Shown here in pieces: positions 10,929 through 59,838 of a DNA stretch of 64,000 nucleotides. Below the pieces are notes generated by a model. That model searched no databases. It saw only the letters and a program-made list of their open reading frames with translations, and was not told where the DNA came from. This stretch comes from Fistulifera solaris. Taxonomy: Eukaryota. The DNA lies in NCBI GenBank assembly GCA_030295235.1, contig AP026120.1:1-64000 (forward strand). Reading direction: 5' to 3'. The stretch's first letter is position 1, and every line of letters begins with the position of its first letter. The position numbers and the translations under genes were made by a program.

Positions 10929-11697
10929 TTAACTTCCGTCTTGGATATAAATACAAGTTAAAATAACAAATACATAAGTTTGAATTAAAGCTACTCCCAA
11001 TTCTAAACCAAATAATATAACAACGATAACCATTGGTAAAATTAGTCCTAAAGAAGTTAAATTCTCAAGTAGTAACATACTCCAAGCAAAACCTATAATA
11101 ACTTTTAATAAGCTATGTCCAGCCATTAAATTAATAAATAATCGCATACCTAAACTAATAGGTCGAGCAATATAAGAAATAAATTCAATAGGAACTAAAA
11201 TTAAAGCTAAAAAGAAACTACTGTTTGCTGGAAGGAATAACGCAAATCCTTGCATTTTATACTTTTCAAAAGTCATAATAGTAATTCCAATGAAAATTGA
11301 AAATGATAAAGTAAAAGTAACAATTACGTGACTAGTTGCTGTAAAAGTATAAGGTATTAAACCAATCAAATTACTGAATAAAATGAAATTAAACACTACA
11401 GAGATAATTGGAACATATTTTTGGTTATCTGTAGTGATTATATCAGAAATTAATTGAGCAGATGCTTCTGAAATACCCTCAATTGTTTTTTTGCCATGCG
11501 TTTGGATTAAAATAAATTGATGTTTTTTGAAAAGAGCTGGCTTCTACTCTTGCGCTGCTTAAATAAATAAGGCTTGAAAAAATAGTTAAAGCTAATATGT
11601 TAATTAATAAAAAGTTTGTTATTGAAAAGTCTAAGTTTAAAAATTTAATATTTACTAATGATAATATTTGAAATTGTTCTAATGGAGCTTTTAGCAT
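10929..11697 (-). CDS. atp6: ATP synthase subunit a (frameshifted)
   Basis: PLEQF start; RPISLGMRLFINLMAGH. Confidence 0.95.
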
Positions 11698-11729
11698 TTA
11701 TGATAATAATTATATATGTAAAATATATA

Positions 11730-11794
11730 TTGAAATAAAAGGATTCGAACCTTTAGCATACCCTCTTATCACATCTTGTGATAAGATTATTTCA
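11730..11794 (-). ncRNA. tRNA-like element (t-element 1) between rps14 and atp6
   Basis: TGAAATA/TATTTCA acceptor, AAAGG-TTCGAAT-CCTTT T-arm, 10-bp hairpin in place of D/anticodon arms. Confidence 0.7.
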
Positions 11795-11828
11795 ATTATA
11801 CGTGTAGTTTCATAGCAAAAAAAGAAGT

Positions 11829-12126
11829 TTACCAACTAGATTTTTTCATTCCATTTATTTTACCTAGTCGAATCAATTTTAACAGAACATGTCTTGAAAA
11901 ATTAGTATTTTTATTAAATCTTTTTTGTTTATAGTTGCGACACATCGATTTGAAAATTTAGTTTTATTATTAGTTGTGGATAATAAATTCAATTTTAGAT
12001 ACGCATTCCATCGTACTAAAGTAAAAAAATTTGAGTTTTTGTAAATAGATTTTAATATTAAATATTTTTTTCTATCTCAGAAAATTGTGATCTTAATTTT
12101 TTATCTTTTGCAAATAATTTTTTCAT
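11829..12126 (-). CDS. rps14: ribosomal protein S14 (frameshifted copy)
   Basis: KDKKLR, NRCV, GMKKSSW. Confidence 0.9.
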
Positions 12127-12128
12127 GC

Positions 12129-12691
12129 TTATTTTTTATTAAAAACTTCCCATGGTGAAATAAACTCAAAAGTTCTATATTCTTGAGCTAATTCTACATT
12201 TTCGTATACAACTCGATTTTTTGTTACATTGTACCGTGCTTCAGTATATCCACTTAAAGGAAAATCTTTTCTTAACGGGTAACCTTGAAAACCATAATCA
12301 GTTAATAAACGAGTCAAACTTGAATGATTAAGAAAAAATATACCATACATGTCAAAATTTCAGATTCCCACCATCCTGCTGCTGGAAATACTTTTTGAAT
12401 AGAGTGTACTGGAGTTAATTCATCTGTTAAAATTTTTATTCTAACTCTTCCATTGTAATGAATACTTAAAAGATCGTAGACAACTTGAAATCTATATAAG
12501 TTTTCAGGATAGTCTACTCCTGAAACACAAGTTAAAACTTTAAATCGATAATTAAAATGATTTTTAAGAACTTGCATCACGTTTACTATGGAGTTAGTTG
12601 GAGTTAAAAATACTGCTTCTTCTTCATTATAAAGTTCGAATCTTACGATTGGTAATATTTTAATTATATTTTCACTTATAGATAATAGCAT
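12129..12691 (-). CDS. nad9: NADH dehydrogenase subunit 9 (one frameshift)
   Basis: [21 protein letters not shown]. Confidence 0.95.
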
Positions 12692-16291: not shown

Positions 16292-16352
16292 TTTACCGCT
16301 TTTATTTTTTTTTACTCGAGTTAATATTTATTAAATTATGTAAGATATTCAT

Positions 16353-16446
16353 TGTAAGAAATAAGATTTGAACTTATAATTAAGGAACTTTTTAACATTC
16401 TTATTAGTTGTCTCATTTGTAACATTTTTGCTACCAACTTTCTTAC
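16353..16446 (-). ncRNA. tRNA-like element (t-element 2) between rps13 and cox3
   Basis: GTAAGAA/TTCTTAC acceptor plus A, ATAAG-TTCAAAT-CTTAT T-arm, non-canonical interior hairpins. Confidence 0.65.
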
Positions 16447-20899: not shown

Positions 20900-20988
20900 C
20901 AATTAAAATTTTTTAAATGATTCCCTACAAATAGTATTTGAAAAAAATTTTAATAAACACTTGAGTTCAAAACGAGTTCAGGTTAAAG
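20900..20988 (-). rRNA. rrn5: divergent 5S rRNA, possibly permuted; 3' end could extend to ~20837
   Basis: ACCTGAACTCGTTTTGAACTCAAGTG matches helix III/loop C consensus; TACTA..TAGGGAA loop E-like. Confidence 0.65.
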
Positions 20989-21037
20989 ATATGAAAATAG
21001 GGATTGAACCTATAAAATCACCTAATTGATTTTCATA
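20989..21037 (-). ncRNA. tRNA-like element (t-element 3) between rns and rrn5
   Basis: TATGAAA/TTTCATA acceptor, ATAGG-TTCAATC-CCTAT T-arm, single small hairpin. Confidence 0.65.
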
Positions 21038-25378: not shown

Positions 25379-25452
25379 GGCGAATAATAGGATTTGAACC
25401 TATGACCTCTAGAACCACAATCTAGCACTCTAACCAACTGAGTTATACCGCC
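25379..25452 (-). tRNA. trnH: tRNA-His(GUG)
   Basis: TTGTGGT loop, encoded G-1. Confidence 0.93.
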
Positions 25453-25701
25453 AAATTGAATTTGAAAACTTTTTTCAAATTCAACTATCTTAGCTTTATT
25501 TATATTTGGTAAAACGAAATATGAACTTTTCAATGTAACTACAGACTCAAAACCCTCTAATAAAAAAAGTTCTATGAATCTTTATAAAATAAATTCGCAA
25601 AGCTGAACATTTATTTTTGGACAAAAAAAGGTTACAATTCGACAAATTATTATATTTAGCTCTTCATTTTTAGTATTTTTCAATTAATTCTAAGTTTTGT
25701 T

Positions 25702-29315: not shown

Positions 29316-31007
<1,692 letters not shown>

Positions 31008-31014
31008 TTATTCG

Positions 31015-34000
31015 ATCCTTCTTTTTTTCTCTATAAGGGTTAAATTTTATTTATATTTATGTTCATATTAGTTCTAACTTTGCATTTACTAATTTATTTC
31101 ATTTTTTTAATTTTTATAAAATACTTGATTTTTCTAGATAGCTTTAACAATCTAACAAAGTTTAAGTTCCTTTTATAAATGGTAGTTAATGAAATTTATC
31201 TTTTTTTACCCCCTTTTCAATCCCTACCCTTTCTTTTTCCTCTATAAGGGTTAAATTTTATTTGTATTTTTATTCATCTTAATTTTAGCTTTGCAGAGAT
31301 TAGCTTATCTCATTTTTTTTAATTTACTAAAAGGAAAGTTTAGGTTTTGATTTTTATTAAAATTTTAATCATTTTGGAAATTTTGAATTATGTTTTTCTG
31401 TTTTGACCAATTCTTTTATTTATTTGCATTTTAGTCTATTTTAGGTATTTTCCAATTTTTTGGCCTAATGTTGATTGGTTTTTCTTTTTCTTCTATAAGA
31501 ATTGAATTTTATTTGTATTTTATTCATCTCAATTTTAGCTTTACAATTCTTAGCTTATTTTATTTTTTTAACATGGCGTAGGATAAAACCCACATTTTGA
31601 TTTTTGCCGCGATTTGAGCCTTTAATTTATTGACTCAAATCCTGTAGATTTCATAATTTTTGAATTCTTCTTTTTCCTTATTTTCATTTCCAATTTTGAT
31701 ATATTATTTAGCCAAAAAATTAAATTGAATTATGTTAACTTAATAGAAATAAGCATGAAATTGAAACATAGATGAGAATGTAATGGTTAAATAAAGATGT
31801 AAAAAATTAATACTTTATGCATTTAATATATGTATATTATATATATTTATGTTAATATCCTATGTTTTTATATTAAAGTTATTATATAACAACAGGAACA
31901 ACTTCTAAAATAAGTGTGGGTTATAAATAATTTGATCTTTTCTTCTTAAAACTTTTTTACTCAGTCGTTTCTTTTTTTATAGTATAGGAATATTAAATTT
32001 TAGTCATTTTAATTTTAACTTTACACTTATTATCCTATATAATACCCTTTTTTGTAAATGATTTTATGTATTGGGGATTCTTATGATTTAAACCTCTATA
32101 ATTGATCTAGCTCTAACTTGTTAGCTTCTTTTTGTAGTGTACTTCCCTATATTCCCCCTTTTTCAATTCCTACCCCTTCTTTTTCCTCTATAAGGGTTAA
32201 ATTTTATTTGTATTTTTATTCATCTTAATTTTAGCTTTGCAGAGATTAGCTTATCTCATTTTTTTTAATTTACTAAAAGGAAAGTTTAGATTTTGATTTT
32301 TATTAAAATTTTAATCATTTTAGAAATTTTGAATTATGTTTTTCTGTTTTGACCAATTCTTTTATTCATTTGCATTTTAGTCTATTTTAGGTATTTTCCA
32401 ATTTTTTGGCCTAATGTTGATTGGTTCTTCTTTTTCTTCTATAAGAATTGAATTTTATTTGTATTTTATTCATCTCAATTTTAGCTTTACAATTCTTAGC
32501 TTATTTTATTTTTTAACATGGCGTAGGATAAAACCCACATTTTGATTTTTGCCATGATTTGAGCCTTTAATTTACTGACTCAAATCCTGTAGATTTCATA
32601 AATTTTGAATTCTTTTTTTCCTTATTTTCATTTCCAATTTTGATATATTATTTAGCCAAAAAATTAAATTGAATTATGTTAACTTAATAGAAATAAGCAT
32701 GAAATTGAAACATAGATGAGAATGTAATAATTAAATAAAGATGTAAAAAATTAATACTTTATACATTTAATATATATATATATTTATGTTAATACCCTAT
32801 GTTTTTATATTAAAGTTATTATATAACAATTTTAGTCATTTTAATTTTAACTTTACACTTATTATTCTATATAATACCCTTTTTGGTAAATTACTTTATG
32901 TATTGGGATTCCTATGATTTAAACCTCTAGAATTGATCTAGCTCTAACTTGTTAGCTTCTTTTTGTAGTGTACTCCCTATATTCCCCCTTTTTCAATTCC
33001 TACCCCTTCTTTTTCCTCTATGAGGGTTAAATTTTATTTGTATTTTTATTCATCTTAATTTTAGCTTTGCAGAGATTAGCTTATCTCATTTTTTTTAATT
33101 TACTAAAAGGAAAGTTTAGATTTTGATTTTTATTAAAATTTTAATCATTTTGGAAATTTTGAATTATGTTTTTCTGTTTTGACCAATTCTTTTATTTATT
33201 TGTATTTTAGGCTATTTTATAGGTATTTTCCACTTTTTTTAGCCTAATGCCGATTGGTTCTTCTTTTTCTTCTATAAGGATTGGATTTTATTTGTATTTT
33301 ATTCATCTCAACTTTAGCTTTACAATTCTTAGCTTATTTTCTTTTTTAACATGGCATTTAGGATAAAACCCACATTTTGATTTTTGCCATGATTTGAGCC
33401 TTTAATTTATTGACTCAAATCCTGTAGATTTCATAATTTTTGAATTCTTTTTTTCCTTATTTTCATTTCCAATTTTGATATAGTATTTAGCCAAAAATTA
33501 AATTGAATTATGTTAACTTAATAGAAATAAGCATGAAATTGAAACATAGATGAGAATGTAATAATTAAATAAAGATGTAAAAAATTAATACTTTATGCAT
33601 TTAATATATGTATATTATATATATTTATGTTAATATCCTATGTTTTTATATTAAAGTTATTATATAACAACAGGAACAACTTCTAAAATAAGTGTGGGTT
33701 ATAAATAATTTGATCTTTTCTTCTTAAAACTTTTTTACTCAGTCGTTTCTTTTTTTATAGTATAGGAATATTAAATTTTAGTCATTTTAATTTTAACTTT
33801 ACACTTATTATCCTATATAATACCCTTTTTTGTAAATGATTTTATGTATTGGGATTCTTATGATTTAAACCTCTATAATTGATCTAGCTCTAACTTGTTA
33901 GCTTCTTTTTGTAGTGTACTTCCCTATATTCCCCCTTTTTCAATTCCTACCCCCTTCTTTTTTCCTCTATAAGGGTTAAATTTTATTTGTATTTTTATTC

Positions 34001-34538
34001 ATCTTAATTTTAGCTTTGCAGAGATTAGCTTATCTCATTTTTTAATTTACTAAAAGGAAAGTTTAGATTTTGATTTTTATTAAAATTTTAATCATTTTGG
34101 AAATTTTGAATTATGTTTTTCTGTTTTGACCAATTCTCTTATTTATTTGCGTTTTAGTCTATTTTAGGTATTTTCCACTTTTTTTGGCCTAATGTTGATT
34201 AGTTCTTCTTTTTCTTCTATAAGAATTGAATTTTATTTGTATTTTATTCATTTCAATTTTAGCTTTACAATTCTTAGCTTATCTTATTTTTTAACATGGC
34301 GTAGGATAAAACCCACATTTTGATTTTTGCCGCGATTTGAGCTTTTAATTTATTGACTCAAATCCTGTAGATTTCATAATTTTTGAATTCTTTCTTTTTC
34401 CTTATTTTCATTTCCAATTTTGATAATAGTATTTAGCCAAAAATTAAATTGAATTATGTTAACTTAATAGAAATAAGCATGAAATTGAAACATAGATGAG
34501 AATGTAATGGTTAAATAAAGATGTAGAAAATTAATACT
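31015..34538 (+). repeat. tandem array of ~830-950 bp units (left arm)
   Basis: Unit landmark CCCCTTTT..CAAT.CCTACCC recurs at ~31209, 32155, 32984, 33931. Confidence 0.93.
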
Positions 34539-34632
34539 TATAGGTTAAAATCTAGATGAACAAAGATAAAATTCAACATCTTAAAAAACATATAAAAATT
34601 GATAAATAGTTGAATTTTGAACCTTTGTACAA

Positions 34633-37070
34633 AAGGCTCAAATCATGACAAAAATCAAAATGTGGGTTTTATCCTACGCCATGTTAAAAAATAAGATAAG
34701 CTAAGAATTGTAAAGCTAAAATTGAAATGAATAAAATACAAATAAAATTCAATTCTTATAGAAGAAAAAGAAGAACTAATCAACATTAGGCTAAAAAAGT
34801 GGAAAATACCTAAAATAGACTAAAACGCAAATAAATAAGAGAATTGGTCAAAACAGAAAAACATAATTCAAAATTTCCAAAATGATTAAAATTTTAATAA
34901 AAATCAAAATCTAAACTTTCCTTTTAGTAAATTAAAAAAAATGAGATAAGCTAATCTCTGCAAAGCTAAAATTAAGATGAATAAAAATACAAATAAAATT
35001 TAACCCTTATAGAGGAAAAAGAAGGGGGTAGGAATTGAAAAAGGGGGAATATAGGGAAGTACACTACAAAAAGAAGCTAACAAGTTAGAGCTAGATCAAT
35101 TCTAGAGGTTTAAATCATAGGAATCTCAATACATAAAGTCATTTACCAAAAAGGGTATTATATAGGATAATAAGTGTAAAGTTAAAATTAAAATGACTAA
35201 AATTGTTATATAATAACTTTAATATAAAAACATAGGGTATTAACATAAATATATATATTAAATGTATAAAGTATTAATTTTTTACATCTTTATTTAACCA
35301 TTACATTCTCATCTATGTTTCAATTTCATGCTTATTTTTATTAAGTTAACATAATTCAATTTAATTTTTTGGCTAAATAATATATCAAAATTGGAAATGA
35401 AAATAAGGAAAAGAAGAATTCAAAATTTATGAAATCTACAGGATTTGAGTCAATAAATTAAAGGCTCAAATCATGGCAAAAATCAAAATGTGGGTTTTAG
35501 CCTAATGTCATGTTAAAAAAGAAAATAAGCTAAGAATTGTAAAGCTAAAGTTGAGATGAATAAAATACAAATAAAATCCAATCCTTATAGAAGAAAAAGA
35601 AGAACCAATCGGCATTAGGCCAAAAAAGTGGAAAATACCTAAAATAGACTAAAATGCAAATGAATAAAAGAATTGGTCAAAACAGAAAAACATAATTCAA
35701 AATTTCCAAAATGATTAAAATTTTAATAAAAATCAAAATCTAAACTTTCCTTTTAGTAAATTAAAAAAATGAGATAAGCTAATCTCTGCAAAGCTAAAAT
35801 TAAGATGAATAAAAATACAAATAAAATTTAACCCTTATAGAGGAAAAAGAAGGGGTAGGAATTGAAAAAGGGGGAATCTAAGGAAAAGAGTACACTACAA
35901 AAAGAAGCTAACAAGTTAGAGCTAGATCAATTATAGAGGTTTAAATCATAGGAATCTCAATACATAAAGTCATTTACCAAAAAGGGTATTATATAGGATA
36001 ATAAGTGTAAAGTTAAAATTAAAATGACTAAAATTTAATATTCTTATACTATACAAAAGAAACGACTGAGTAAAAAAGTTTTAAGAAGAAAAGATCAAAT
36101 TATTTATAATCCACACTTATTTTAGAAGTTGTTCCTGTTGTTATATAATAACTTTAATATAAAAACATAGGGTATTAACATAAATATATATATTAAATGT
36201 ATAAAGTATTAATTTTTTACATCTTTATTTAACCATTACATTCTCATCTATGTTTCAATTTCATGCTTATTTTTATTAAGTTAACATAATTCAATTTAAT
36301 TTTTTGGCTAAATAATATATCAAAATTGGAAATGAAAATAAGGAAAAGAAGAATTCAAAATTTATGAAATCTACAGGATTTGAGTCAATAAATTAAAGGC
36401 TCAAATCATGGCAAAAATCAAAATGTGGGTTTTAGCCTAATGCCATGTTAAAAAAGAAAATAAGCTAAGAATTGTAAAGCTAAAGTTGAGATGAATAAAA
36501 TTCAAATAAATAAAAGAATTGGTCAAAACAGAAAAACATAATTCAAAATTTCCAAAATGATTAAAATTTTAATAAAAATCAAAATCTAAACTTTCCTTTT
36601 AGTAAATTAAAAAAAATGAGATAAGCTAATCTCTGCAAAGCTAAAATTAAGATGAATAAAAATACAAATAAAATTTAACCCTTATAGAGGAAAAAGAAGG
36701 GGGTAGGAATTTAAAAAGGGGGAATATAGGGAGTACACTACAAAAAGAAGCTAACAAGTTAGAGCTAGATCAATTATAGAGGTTTAAATCATAGGAATCT
36801 CAATACATAAAGTCATTTACCAAAAAGGGTATTATATAGGATAATAAATGTAAAGTTAAAATTAAAATGACTAAAATTTAATATTTTTATAATATAAAAA
36901 AGAAACGACTGAGTAAAAAAAGTTTTAAGAAGAAAAGATCAAATTATTTATAGCCCACACTTATTTTAGAGTTGTTCCTGTTGTTATATAATAGCTTTAA
37001 TATAAAAACATATGGTATTAACATAAATAAAATATATATATATATATATTAAATGTATAAAGTATTAATT
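34633..37070 (-). repeat. same tandem units in inverted orientation (right arm)
   Basis: Reverse-complement landmark GGGGTAGGAATT.AAAAAGGGGG ends at ~35047, 35874, 36722. Confidence 0.93.
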
Positions 37071-37099
37071 TAGAATTTTATTTAAACAAATCTATTAAA

Positions 37100-37951
37100 A
37101 TGCCAATTAAAAATAAAGAAAGAGAACTAGTTACTTCTTCTGAAAATTTGAAAAATTTACCTGATGAGAATCTGCTTTTTTCTCCAAGTTCTAATTTACA
37201 AATTAATGAAGAAAATCCAATAGATGTCTATACTTTGTCAACTAGAAATGATCTTAATTTTAGTTCTTTGTTTAAAAGTCAGACCAATGGTACTGTCGAT
37301 TTAACTGATGCTATATTTCCAAATTCTGCGCGACAAGTACGTTACAAATCTGAAGATGTGGATATTGAAAATTTAAAGACCCACACATTTGAATTGTACC
37401 AGTTAAATTTAAAAAAAAAAGAAGGACAAAGTAACCAACTTGCTTTTCGTGATTTTACCGAAATTGAAAATTCATCTGAATTTAAGGATTCAGAACTTTT
37501 AGCCAAATATAATGCCTTAACTACAGAAGAACCTTATCGCACATCATATATTAATTCTCACATTGACGTTTCTTTAATGAGTAATGAAGCTTTTTTAACA
37601 TTAGCAGAGCAATCTAGAATGTTGATAACCAGAATTTTAGCATTTGTAAAAGTCGATGACTTATCTTTTACATCATTACTACGCTATCTTCGAGTGCTAG
37701 CAGATCCAACCTCTATTAACGAACTCGATATCTTTGTTGATTCAAAAGAGTATTTTAAAAAAGCTCTTCTTAGTTGTTATAATTTATTTTTATATAGTTC
37801 GACTTTCGTAGCTTGTACATTATTTCAAGATAATAATGTGGATCCTAACCGATTAAAATATGCGGCGATTGCAATGACTTTAATTAAAATACTTCATAAT
37901 ACTAACTTATCAGTAGGTATCGCGAAAACAGAAACTAATTACTTTTTTTAA
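37100..37951 (+). CDS. orphan ORF283 (probably joins 37956-38261 as ~386 aa)
   Basis: 283-codon open frame with ATG in AT-rich DNA; stop follows a T7 run. Confidence 0.65.
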   Translation: MPIKNKERELVTSSENLKNLPDENLLFSPSSNLQINEENPIDVYTLSTRNDLNFSSLFKSQTNGTVDLTDAIFPNSARQVRYKSEDVDIENLKTHTFELYQLNLKKKEGQSNQLAFRDFTEIENSSEFKDSELLAKYNALTTEEPYRTSYINSHIDVSLMSNEAFLTLAEQSRMLITRILAFVKVDDLSFTSLLRYLRVLADPTSINELDIFVDSKEYFKKALLSCYNLFLYSSTFVACTLFQDNNVDPNRLKYAAIAMTLIKILHNTNLSVGIAKTETNYFF

Positions 37952-37955
37952 AACT

Positions 37956-38261
37956 GTGCGAGAATCATTACAATTAAAATATTACATTCCTAAACTATCA
38001 GAGTATATGTTACCCAAGTTACCAGAGTTTTTAAAAACTAGTTTTAAAAAAATGTCGCCTTTTGTAAAACGATCTTGTTTATTTGTTATACAATCGACTA
38101 GTCTTGCGATTTGTGGTTATGTGATTAATGAAAATTCAGGCAATCTTTTAACGATTTCACAAAATAATACTCATCAGTTAAATCTAAGCTTTACTCAAAG
38201 TCGGAATGATTGGTTTGATAAATTTTTAGAAATTTTATTTTTTAGTTTTTCTAATATCTAA
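37956..38261 (+). CDS. probable C-terminal part of orphan ORF283
   Basis: One-base change in the T7 run joins the frames. Confidence 0.5.
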   Translation: MRESLQLKYYIPKLSEYMLPKLPEFLKTSFKKMSPFVKRSCLFVIQSTSLAICGYVINENSGNLLTISQNNTHQLNLSFTQSRNDWFDKFLEILFFSFSNI

Positions 38262-38299
38262 TGTTTATTTAAATTTGTTAATTCTACACAAATCATAAA

Positions 38300-39055
38300 A
38301 TGTCAACTAAAACAATTTTAAAGCCATTCTTTGAGCCAATAGAAATAATAATCAAAGAATTTTATCTACTTATACTAAATCTTACTCCTTCTTATGCAGT
38401 TATAACAAGGTTAATATTTATGAGTATTTTAGTTTCAAAAATTATTCTTGTTGTGCCAGGTTCTTCTCTAAAAATTCCTGTTCTTTATAATGCAGCGAGT
38501 CTTTATTTAAATGAAATAACAGAAATCTGGTCGGAATTTAAATCTTTCTTTTATTCTTTAATAACTTATTTTCAACAAAATTCTGCGTTATATCAAGAAA
38601 AAAGTTTGCTTGTAGTTGAAAATACTATGTATAAAGAATTATTAGATTCTTTAAAATTAGAAAATCATACACTAAATTTGGAATTGCGAACTATACAAGA
38701 AGCGAATGCGCAATACAAAGCTGAAAATTCATTGTTGTTGCAAGAATTATCTAGGTCAAAGACTATTAATCAATTCGATAACATTATAAGAATAGCGGGT
38801 TCTATTATCGGCGTTGCGAACATTTTTACAAATTGTCTAAATTTGGGTACAATGTTCTACAATTTTATAATTCCTTCAAAAAAATTAGCTGAAGTTAGCT
38901 TATCAGTTCAAGATAAAGAATTATTAAAGGACACTCATAATTATGCAATGAAATCTGTTGAGTCTAAAATATTAGATCAAGCAGCTAATACTAAACAGTA
39001 TAATATTTTTGACGGTGCAAAGAGTTTATTTGATATTAGTCGTGAAGGTGGCTAA
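38300..39055 (+). CDS. orphan ORF251, hydrophobic segments plus coiled-coil-like middle
   Basis: 251-codon ATG-TAA ORF. Confidence 0.65.
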   Translation: MSTKTILKPFFEPIEIIIKEFYLLILNLTPSYAVITRLIFMSILVSKIILVVPGSSLKIPVLYNAASLYLNEITEIWSEFKSFFYSLITYFQQNSALYQEKSLLVVENTMYKELLDSLKLENHTLNLELRTIQEANAQYKAENSLLLQELSRSKTINQFDNIIRIAGSIIGVANIFTNCLNLGTMFYNFIIPSKKLAEVSLSVQDKELLKDTHNYAMKSVESKILDQAANTKQYNIFDGAKSLFDISREGG

Positions 39056-55117: not shown

Positions 55118-55182
55118 TTGAAATAAAAGGATTCGAACCTTTAGCATACCCTCTTATCACATCTTGTGATAAGATTATTTCA
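55118..55182 (-). ncRNA. t-element 1 (second copy)
   Basis: Identical to 11730-11794. Confidence 0.7.
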
Positions 55183-55216: not shown

Positions 55217-55516
55217 TTACCAACTAGATTTTTTCATTCCATTTATTTTACCTAGTCGAATCAATTTTAACAGAACATGTCTTGAAAAATTAGTATTTTT
55301 ATTAAATCTTTTTTTGTTTATAGTTGCGACACATCGATTTGAAAATTTAGTTTTATTATTAGTTGTGGATAATAAATTCAATTTTAGATACGCATTCCAT
55401 CGTACTAAAGTAAAAAAATTTGAGTTTTTGTAAATAGATTTTAATATTAAATATTTTTTTTCTATCTCAGAAAATTGTGATCTTAATTTTTTATCTTTTG
55501 CAAATAATTTTTTCAT
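55217..55516 (-). CDS. rps14: ribosomal protein S14
   Basis: Intact; ends KKSSW. Confidence 0.93.
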   Translation of the reverse strand: MKKLFAKDKKLRSQFSEIEKKYLILKSIYKNSNFFTLVRWNAYLKLNLLSTTNNKTKFSNRCVATINKKRFNKNTNFSRHVLLKLIRLGKINGMKKSSW

Positions 55517-59683: not shown

Positions 59684-59744
59684 TTTACCGCTTTTATTTT
59701 TTTTTACTCGAGTTAATATTTATTAAATTATGTAAGATATTCAT

Positions 59745-59838
59745 TGTAAGAAATAAGATTTGAACTTATAATTAAGGAACTTTTTAACATTCTTATTAGT
59801 TGTCTCATTTGTAACATTTTTGCTACCAACTTTCTTAC
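59745..59838 (-). ncRNA. t-element 2 (second copy)
   Basis: Identical to 16353-16446. Confidence 0.65.

What the first reader, a model, noticed from the sequence alone, without database searches (positions are those of the whole stretch)
11730..11794. t-element 1: trnQ-like 3' half fused to a 10-bp hairpin upstream of atp6
Seen (minus strand): TGAAATA-A-TCTTATCACA-AGA-TGTGATAAGA-GGGTATGCT-AAAGG-TTCGAAT-CCTTT-TATTTCA-A. The last 25 nt match trnQ (30810-30834) at 24 positions. The single difference (C to T in the 3' acceptor strand) is matched by G to A in the 5' strand (TGGAATA to TGAAATA), a compensatory change. It is identical in both assembly copies. Inference: derived from trnQ and kept for structure; RNase Z cleavage would leave atp6 with a ~32 nt leader.
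Basis: partly seen in the sequence, partly recalled or inferred. Interest (0 to 1): 0.7.

Follow-up and report, generated by a model that had tools for sequence, protein, structure and literature searches.

The report
Leftover tRNA half before diatom atp6
In a diatom's mitochondrial genome, a glutamine tRNA gene moved away but left behind just the half that tRNA-trimming enzymes recognise, right in front of an energy gene; the same remnant has appeared in several other diatoms, which suggests it is kept as a cutting mark for messenger RNA, a trick already known from plant mitochondria.

Summary
Real feature in a raphid diatom mitogenome. 11730-11794 (-) is a 7-bp acceptor stem, a 10-bp hairpin, a linker and a canonical T arm; 24 of the last 25 nt match trnQ (next tRNA 19). 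The two 'copies' come from an over-assembled circle, but a separate short-read contig confirms the element. In 12 of 70 related atp6 loci, including the two nearest, an intact trnQ sits directly before atp6, so the element is the relic of that gene. Of 51 distinct loci with no tRNA there, 8 keep a trnQ remnant: 7 the T arm/acceptor end, 1 the anticodon arm, from at least three origins. A close relative keeps the 5' acceptor strand and outer hairpin, with one two-sided pair change, while the linker diverges. Best reading (0.6): a t-element cut by RNase Z, leaving atp6 a 32-nt leader; RNase P cleavage is less certain (no D loop). No RNA end was mapped, and 43 of 51 loci lack any remnant, so it is dispensable. 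t-elements are known in plants and tRNA-like loci in Vischeria; I found no diatom report, and the scan's index had none. New member of a known kind.

The parts
11788..11794 (-). 5' strand of the 7-bp acceptor-like stem (one change against trnQ, position 3)
   Evidence: a perfect 7-mer partner this near arises in 2.6% of shuffles; no difference listed in the close relative X16 record 3
11764..11786 (-). perfect 10-bp hairpin with 3-nt loop, in place of the D and anticodon arms; no G18-G19, no 7-nt anticodon loop
   Evidence: one of 5 sites with a perfect hairpin of 10 bp or more in 43.3 kb; relative keeps the outer 6 bp and shows a two-sided change at the pair 11778/11772 (hand reading, tables 3 and 4)
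11755..11763 (-). 9-nt unpaired linker
   Evidence: 4 of 9 positions differ in the close relative
11738..11754 (-). T arm, 5 bp with canonical 7-nt loop, identical to that of trnQ
11730..11737 (-). 3' acceptor strand and discriminator A (11730); predicted RNase Z cut right after it
   Evidence: the cut is inferred
11698..11729 (-). predicted 32-nt AT-only leader of atp6 mRNA
   Evidence: inferred, not mapped
11795..11828 (-). 34-nt trailer between the rps14 stop codon and the element
10929..11697 (-). atp6 (one extra base in a homopolymer at 11486 is an assembly error)
   Evidence: X1 lacks the base
11829..12126 (-). rps14 (two homopolymer errors in this copy; intact at 55217-55516)
   Evidence: PF00253 E 1.5e-5, 25.1 bits, just under the cut-off of 27
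30810..30881 (-). the intact trnQ(UUG), now directly upstream of cox1
55118..55182 (-). second reading of the same element in the over-assembled overlap (not an independent copy)

Best explanation
The element is what remains of the trnQ gene that stood directly upstream of atp6 in the ancestor. After trnQ was duplicated or moved (an intact copy now precedes cox1), the old copy stopped decoding and lost its D and anticodon arms, but kept the stacked acceptor stem and T arm. That half is the part RNase Z reads, so the element most likely still punctuates the nad7-nad9-rps14-atp6 precursor: RNase Z cuts after A11730 and gives atp6 mRNA a 32-nt leader. A PRORP-type RNase P may also cut before 11794 and give rps14 a 34-nt trailer, but this is less certain as the D-loop half of the elbow is gone; if it does not cut, the element stays on rps14 mRNA as a structured 3' end. 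Shown: sequence, fold, origin by position, biased retention. Inferred: transcription through the element, cleavage, the enzyme.
For: Position: intact trnQ directly before atp6 in 12 of 70 related loci, among them the two nearest, L005 and L006. Biased decay here: 2 of 32 top-half positions changed against a middle no better than shuffles; simulated neutral decay keeps all 12 pairs and the T loop in 1.0% of runs at 20% divergence, 0.1% at 30%. Repeated elsewhere: a sequence-only test finds trnQ remnants in 8 of 51 tRNA-free upstream regions, 7 of them the 3' top half and 1 the anticodon arm; the strict structure scan finds 5 of 51 against 0 on the reverse strand and 0.12 (max 1) in 100 shuffles. 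L007 and L026 still show trnQ in the middle (p 0.001, 0.014), so they began as whole genes; L007, L008 and L030 hold an intact trnQ elsewhere in the locus. At least three origins sit next to lineages with intact trnQ (window; L026+L030; L007). Close relative with the same order: no change listed at 11781-11794 or 11764-11769, 8 substitutions and 3 indels in the other 20 nt of the middle, one pair changed on both sides. PRORP (90.8 bits) and RNase Z-type (41.6 bits) genes are in the genome. RNase Z faces acceptor stem and T arm, other parts largely dispensable (PMC3790967); plant t-elements upstream of cox1 set its 5' end (PMC1920247).
Against: No RNA end was mapped (only contigs). 43 of 51 tRNA-free loci have no trnQ remnant, including rps14-atp6 neighbours L023, L051, L054, L077 and the trnQ-cox1-atp6 loci L014 and L016: atp6 can be expressed without it. 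L019 kept the anticodon arm and lost the T arm. 7 vs 1 is p 0.035 if loci are independent, but 0.11 when counted as 5 lineages vs 1. The 5' acceptor partner is better than chance only in W, L008, L026, L030 (P 0.01-0.05), not in L007, L018, L029, L069 (0.15-0.58). The relative is one contig at depth 5.6 with 21 of its 36 substitutions not displayed, so its T arm and 3' acceptor strand are unresolved. The acceptor stem can extend by further pairs beyond position 1, which may hinder cutting. PRORP needs the D/T-loop elbow (PMC10941002), which the element lacks. The tree is a quick single-gene tree with SH-aLRT only.
Confidence: 0.6

Rival explanations
1. Neutral, decaying trnQ pseudogene. The top half looks kept because it is what we can detect, and the paired changes and the perfect hairpin come from template-switch repair of palindromes, not selection.
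For: Most related loci do without it (43 of 51); L019 decayed the other way; L029 has no good 5' partner; perfect hairpins occur at 4 other sites of the genome.
Against: The sequence-only test used a longer probe for the middle (40 nt) than for the 3' end (25 nt) and still found 7 vs 1; simulation gives 1% or less; in the close relative changes avoid the stems' outer parts. A recent relic would not have a middle replaced beyond recognition beside a near-perfect top half.
Confidence: 0.15
2. Selected RNA structure, but not a nuclease substrate: it stays in the transcript as a 3'-end protecting fold for rps14 mRNA, a protein (PPR) binding site, or a terminator-like hairpin.
For: The new 10-bp hairpin is itself partly conserved in the relative, which RNase Z recognition does not require; L007 built a similar hairpin out of its D arm (read by eye); the hairpin plus T-run scores as terminator-like (1 found, 0.0 in shuffles).
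Against: The terminator-like reading is on the + strand, opposite to the genes around it. A generic stabilising fold would not need the tRNA T-loop consensus or a 7+5-bp spacing, both kept in several lineages.
Confidence: 0.15
3. The element is cut out at both ends and acts as a stable, CCA-tailed tRNA-like small RNA with a role of its own, like the tRNA-X loci of Vischeria.
For: Whole 65-nt unit folds stably; Vischeria mitogenomes keep trnK-derived loci with variable or missing anticodon arm and unknown role (PMC13449250); plant t-elements are released and CCA-tailed (PMC11658184 abstract).
Against: It is absent from most diatoms sampled, its sequence differs among lineages, and it always sits where the parent tRNA sat, within 8-68 nt of a start codon, which fits a cis signal; plant t-elements are not aminoacylated.
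Confidence: 0.07
4. A working aberrant tRNA (for example the missing tRNA-Thr), a mitochondrial tmRNA, or the mitochondrial 5S rRNA.
For: No trnT among the 24 tRNA genes; raphid diatom mt-5S genes are very divergent (PMC4267664).
Against: No anticodon loop (3 nt here, 4 nt in the relative); no G3-U70 pair (tmRNA/Ala identity, recalled); no tmRNA or 5S family among the 7 Rfam hits here; a better 5S candidate lies after rns.
Confidence: 0.03

Closest known systems
Plant mitochondrial t-elements (Arabidopsis cox1, rps4, ccmFN1, nad6, ccmC; Forner et al. 2007, PMC1920247; wheat, Hanic-Joyce et al. 1990, cited there)
   Same: Acceptor stem plus GGTTCRANYCC T arm outside a tRNA gene, just upstream of a protein gene on the sense strand; other arms non-canonical.
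   Different: Diatom, not plant; parent gene and history are traceable by position; repeated independent origins; ends not mapped here.
Retained trnM pseudogene before ND2 in parrotfish and lanternfish (Mabuchi et al. 2004, seen only as cited in PMC3682873 and PMC4223735)
   Same: A tRNA copy left at its old place after rearrangement and proposed to persist as punctuation mark for the next mRNA.
   Different: Animal mtDNA with strict tRNA punctuation; here D and anticodon arms are replaced by a new hairpin, and most relatives lack the relic.
tRNA-X1/X2/X3 loci of Vischeria mitogenomes (eustigmatophytes; PMC13449250)
   Same: Stramenopile mitochondrial tRNA duplicates with conserved non-anticodon parts and variable or missing anticodon arm, judged selected and non-decoding.
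   Different: Derived from trnK, conserved across a genus, function left open by the authors; the passage seen does not link them to processing.
tRNA family RF00005 / trnQ(UUG)
   Same: Acceptor stem, T arm, discriminator; 30 of 32 top-half positions as trnQ.
   Different: No D arm, no anticodon arm; 22.9 bits, below the family cut-off of 29; not called by ARAGORN.

Membership tests
t-element | tRNA-like fold with 7-bp acceptor stem and canonical T arm outside a functional tRNA gene | tested here: met
t-element | lies in sense orientation at the 5' or 3' border of an mRNA | tested here: met
   34 nt after rps14 stop, 32 nt before atp6 ATG, same strand
t-element | its 5' or 3' end coincides with a mapped transcript end | tested here: inconclusive
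   only contigs available; two RNA studies have no cover at 11722-11814 but cannot show ends
t-element | cleaved by RNase Z and/or RNase P; CCA added, not aminoacylated | not testable with these tools
   enzyme genes present; targeting to mitochondria and activity not tested
functional tRNA (RF00005) | anticodon arm with 7-nt loop; score above family cut-off | tested here: not met
   3-nt loop; 22.9 bits vs 29
functional tRNA (RF00005) | D loop with G18-G19 | tested here: not met
trnQ-derived relic at the ancestral site | closest to trnQ in sequence, and intact trnQ at the same position in relatives | tested here: met
   24/25 vs 19/25; 12 of 70 loci; nearest relatives in tree
mitochondrial tmRNA | alanine acceptor identity (G3-U70; recalled) and Rfam match | tested here: not met
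   A3-U70 here; no tmRNA hit
mitochondrial 5S rRNA (RF00001/RF02547) | beta and gamma domains matching a 5S model | tested here: not met
   no 5S hit at E up to 10 in 11500-12200

The most novel reading that the evidence does not exclude
Diatom mitochondria depend on tRNA punctuation at particular gene starts strongly enough that, whenever a tRNA gene moves, its acceptor/T-arm half is left behind as a dedicated processing signal: trnQ relics before atp6 in at least three raphid lineages, trnV-like relics before cob in other diatoms, and a trnM half before cox3 here. The relics would be a repeated natural experiment that defines the minimal substrate of stramenopile mitochondrial RNase Z/PRORP and would offer a function for the unexplained tRNA-X loci of eustigmatophytes; in the boldest form the T-arm-like hairpin after rns shows that the 5' helix of permuted mitochondrial 5S rRNA was recruited from such a relic.
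Probability: 0.3. Interest if true: 0.65.

Novelty: new member of a known kind. Interest (0 to 1): 0.45.

Why it matters
RNA processing in diatom mitochondria is, as far as my searches reach, unmapped. The element gives an exact prediction (atp6 5' end at 11729, non-encoded CCA at 11730) and the comparative series gives graded stages from intact trnQ to bare top half. If confirmed it extends t-elements from streptophytes to stramenopiles by independent origin, shows how mitogenome rearrangement is constrained by processing signals, and flags a class of elements that ARAGORN and Rfam cut-offs miss in diatom annotations. It does not define a new mechanism.

Tried and rejected
Viral contigs held no atp6 relative; of 13 loci from the prokaryote genome set only L085 was a mitochondrial-type contig and was used, the 12 bacterial ones were not. 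Eleven of the 81 mitochondrial loci were left out of the upstream counts because they lacked the atp6 start or enough upstream sequence (L015, L031-33, L035-37, L050, L053, L057, L073). No raw RNA reads existed. RNA contigs of X2 and X4 stop at 11685 and 11664-11706 and none covers 11722-11814 while X1 and X16 go on: at most a weak hint, since cover of rps14 by the same strain is also poor, so not used as evidence. The careful tree did not finish; the quick tree was used. The loose scan's L058 hit is inside cob and is treated as chance; L069 is weak (T loop altered). Gene conversion from the genome's own trnQ as the preserving force: not favoured, since the L007 and L008 relics do not track their own trnQ, but not excluded for the window. 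The scan's own index returned nothing by words and two unrelated notes by place. I first counted the hairpin after rns as a second clear t-element and withdrew that.

Full report
Setting. The window is a mitochondrial genome of about 43.3 kb read one and a half times: 1-20607 repeats at 43319-64000 with 99.5% identity. It has rnl, rns and 24 tRNA genes (23 by ARAGORN, trnH by Rfam). Its Atp6 is closest, among named hits, to Proschkinia (91% over the searched part), then Schizostauron, Gomphonema and Berkeleya, so it is a raphid pennate diatom. The flanking genes are rps14 and atp6; their frameshifts in this copy are homopolymer errors, absent from an independent contig.

11730-11794 on the minus strand reads as a 7-nt 5' acceptor strand, one A, a perfect 10-bp hairpin with a 3-nt loop, a 9-nt linker, a 5-bp T arm with the canonical loop, the 3' acceptor strand and a discriminator A. 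RNAfold returns this fold (z -3.3). The last 25 nt match trnQ at 24 positions, the best other tRNA at 19. The one change is mirrored in the 5' strand, at a position that is G in 12 of 12 intact trnQ genes. Rfam's tRNA model covers exactly these coordinates at 22.9 bits, under its cut-off, with D and anticodon arms unaligned. A model from 12 intact trnQ genes gives 26 hits at E up to 1 in the unique 43.3 kb: 23 tRNA genes, this element (E 0.0005) and two weaker elements.

Origin. I fetched 80 metagenome loci and one usable contig from the genome set with an Atp6 alignment and kept the 70 with the atp6 start and upstream DNA. Twelve have an intact trnQ directly before atp6, five another tRNA. 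The two nearest, L005 and L006, read rps14-cox1-trnQ-atp6; L007, L008, L014, L016 and L019 read rps14-trnQ-cox1-atp6; the window reads rps14-element-atp6, with trnQ-cox1 beside the repeat region. The element therefore stands where the ancestral trnQ stood. L030 shows an intermediate: intact trnQ, a broken piece of the atp6 start, a degenerate trnQ, then atp6. Duplication followed by loss is the simplest route (inference).

Is it kept by selection? In the window 2 of 32 top-half positions differ from trnQ, while the middle aligns no better than shuffles (p 0.86); simulated neutral decay leaves 12 pairs and the T loop intact in 1.0% of runs at 20% divergence and 0.1% at 30%. Among 51 distinct upstream regions without a tRNA (window included), a strict scan for T arm plus acceptor finds 5 (window, L008, L018, L026, L030) against 0 on the reverse strand and 0.12 per shuffle set; a loose scan finds 8 against 2 and 1.28. 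To avoid selecting on structure I also searched by sequence alone: 7 regions match the 3' 25 nt of trnQ (window, L007, L008, L018, L026, L029, L030) and 1 matches the 40-nt middle (L019). That is p 0.035 by locus and 0.11 by lineage. L007 and L026 retain traces of the middle, so they began as whole genes. On a quick Atp6 tree the window, L026+L030 and L007 each group with loci that have intact trnQ (SH-aLRT 99, 98, 92), giving at least three origins. The 5' acceptor partner beats chance in four loci and not in four others.

A close relative. Run X16 holds a 566-nt contig across rps14, the element and atp6, with 36 substitutions and 6 gaps. Read by hand from the tables: no difference is listed at 11781-11794 or 11764-11769 (5' acceptor strand and outer six hairpin pairs), while the remaining 20 nt of the middle carry 8 substitutions and 3 indels, among them a change on both sides of the pair 11778/11772. 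All six gaps are listed and none falls in the T arm or acceptor. But 21 substitutions are not displayed and another contig overlaps 11720-11752, so the T arm and 3' acceptor strand are unresolved; the contig's depth is 5.6.

Mechanism. RNase Z faces the stacked acceptor stem and T arm and other parts appear largely dispensable (PMC3790967, passages). In Arabidopsis a t-element upstream of cox1 is cut at its 3' end, receives non-encoded C and A, and sets the mRNA 5' end (PMC1920247, passages); such elements are CCA-tailed but not charged (PMC11658184, abstract). Stramenopiles use PRORP, which binds the D/T-loop elbow through G18 and G19-C56 (PMC10941002, passages); the element has no such D loop, so the 5' cut is less certain. 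Genes for PRORP and an RNase Z-type domain are in this genome; their targeting was not examined. The predicted products are an atp6 mRNA with a 32-nt leader and, if RNase P cuts, an rps14 mRNA with a 34-nt trailer. Intact trnQ genes in relatives end 3-24 nt before the aligned atp6 start, so the relic would preserve an old processing site. None of this was observed: only contigs were available.

Against. 43 of 51 regions have no trnQ remnant, including loci where rps14 abuts atp6 (L023, L051, L054, L077) and loci with the trnQ-cox1-atp6 order (L014, L016). The signal is thus dispensable over evolutionary time. L019 decayed the opposite way. The hairpin's partial conservation is not explained by RNase Z recognition and leaves room for an mRNA-stabilising role. 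On the plus strand the hairpin and T-run look terminator-like, but the neighbouring genes are on the minus strand.

Wider pattern. A strict scan of 82 sequences (676,009 bases, both strands) gave 13 hits outside ARAGORN tRNAs, 12 in the atp6 sense orientation. One is probably a missed trnM (L049), two lie in atp6-derived sequence (L030, L038), two were not examined (L053, L059). The rest are the window's three, L018, L026, and three before cob (L058, L062, L077); L058 and L062 carry the acceptor of the trnV that lies between cob and atp6 in L063 and L071. In the window, the element before cox3 is a copy of the 3' half of trnM 29151 with the first codons of cob. The element after rns is in the same register as the intact trnM of L058 and L063, but its hairpin is also the 5' helix of a weak permuted-5S match (19.5 bits, cut-off 39; raphid diatom 5S genes may have such a helix, PMC4267664, passages), so it is ambiguous.

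What is known. t-elements are described in plant mitochondria and proposed for Chara (PMC8003010, passages). A trnM pseudogene kept as punctuation after rearrangement was proposed for parrotfish (Mabuchi 2004, seen only as cited in PMC3682873 and PMC4223735, passages). Vischeria mitogenomes hold trnK-derived loci with variable anticodon arms and unknown function (PMC13449250, one passage; Note S5 not read). Nine literature searches listed no paper on diatom t-elements, and three comparative diatom mitogenome papers contain neither 'trnQ' nor 'tRNA-like' in their main text (PMC8987724, PMC12412971, PMC6007386; term searches). PMC5015259 and PMC5576253 (passages) gave only the general punctuation model. 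The library lacks most subscription papers, so absence from print is not proven.

Verdict. A real, traceable trnQ relic with good comparative signs of selection on its acceptor/T-arm half. It works most likely like a t-element (0.6); membership in the strict sense awaits a mapped RNA end. New for diatoms as far as I could search, not a new kind of mechanism. Interest 0.45.

Noticed in passing
window 16352-16415 (-), second reading near 59744-59800: T arm plus 6-bp acceptor upstream of cox3; a diverged copy of the 3' half of trnM 29151 together with the first codons of cob (82% over 50 nt), so cox3 may have taken its 5' end from a trnM-cob duplication. None of 10 related loci showed this relic (L014 has a different intact trnM there).
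   Followed up: partly
window 20989-21037 (-) and 20908-21013 (-): tRNA-like top half 5 nt after rns, in the register of the intact trnM of L058/L063; its T-arm-like hairpin is also the 5' helix of a weak permuted mt-5S match (RF02547, 19.5 bits). Candidate unannotated rrn5, possibly with a helix recruited from a tRNA relic.
   Followed up: partly
L058:8664-8688, L062:835-859, L077:4608-4632: T arm plus acceptor elements upstream of cob; L058 and L062 share the acceptor of trnV, which lies before atp6 in L063 and L071.
   Followed up: partly
L030:9060-10001: Apparent duplication intermediate: atp6-derived pieces, intact trnQ, a broken atp6 start, a degenerate trnQ, then atp6.
   Followed up: partly
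L007:6866-6936: trnQ relic whose D arm has become a 9-bp hairpin with a 3-nt loop, parallel to the window's hairpin (read by eye).
   Followed up: no
window 31017-37088: About 6 kb of nested direct and inverted repeats (units of about 250 and 830-950 bp) directly upstream of trnQ-cox1.
   Followed up: no
window 37100-39055 (+): Three ORFs (283, 101, 251 aa) beside the repeat region with no Pfam match at E 0.01.
   Followed up: partly
window 25379-25451 (-): trnH(GUG) missed by ARAGORN, found by Rfam; a perfect 13-bp hairpin lies just upstream at 25456-25484.
   Followed up: yes
whole window: Over-assembled circle with many one-base homopolymer errors that break reading frames; G000 also holds the region on contigs C58 and C59.
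   Followed up: yes
L085: A 41-kb mitochondrial-type contig filed inside a Gammaproteobacteria genome bin: probable bin contamination.
   Followed up: no
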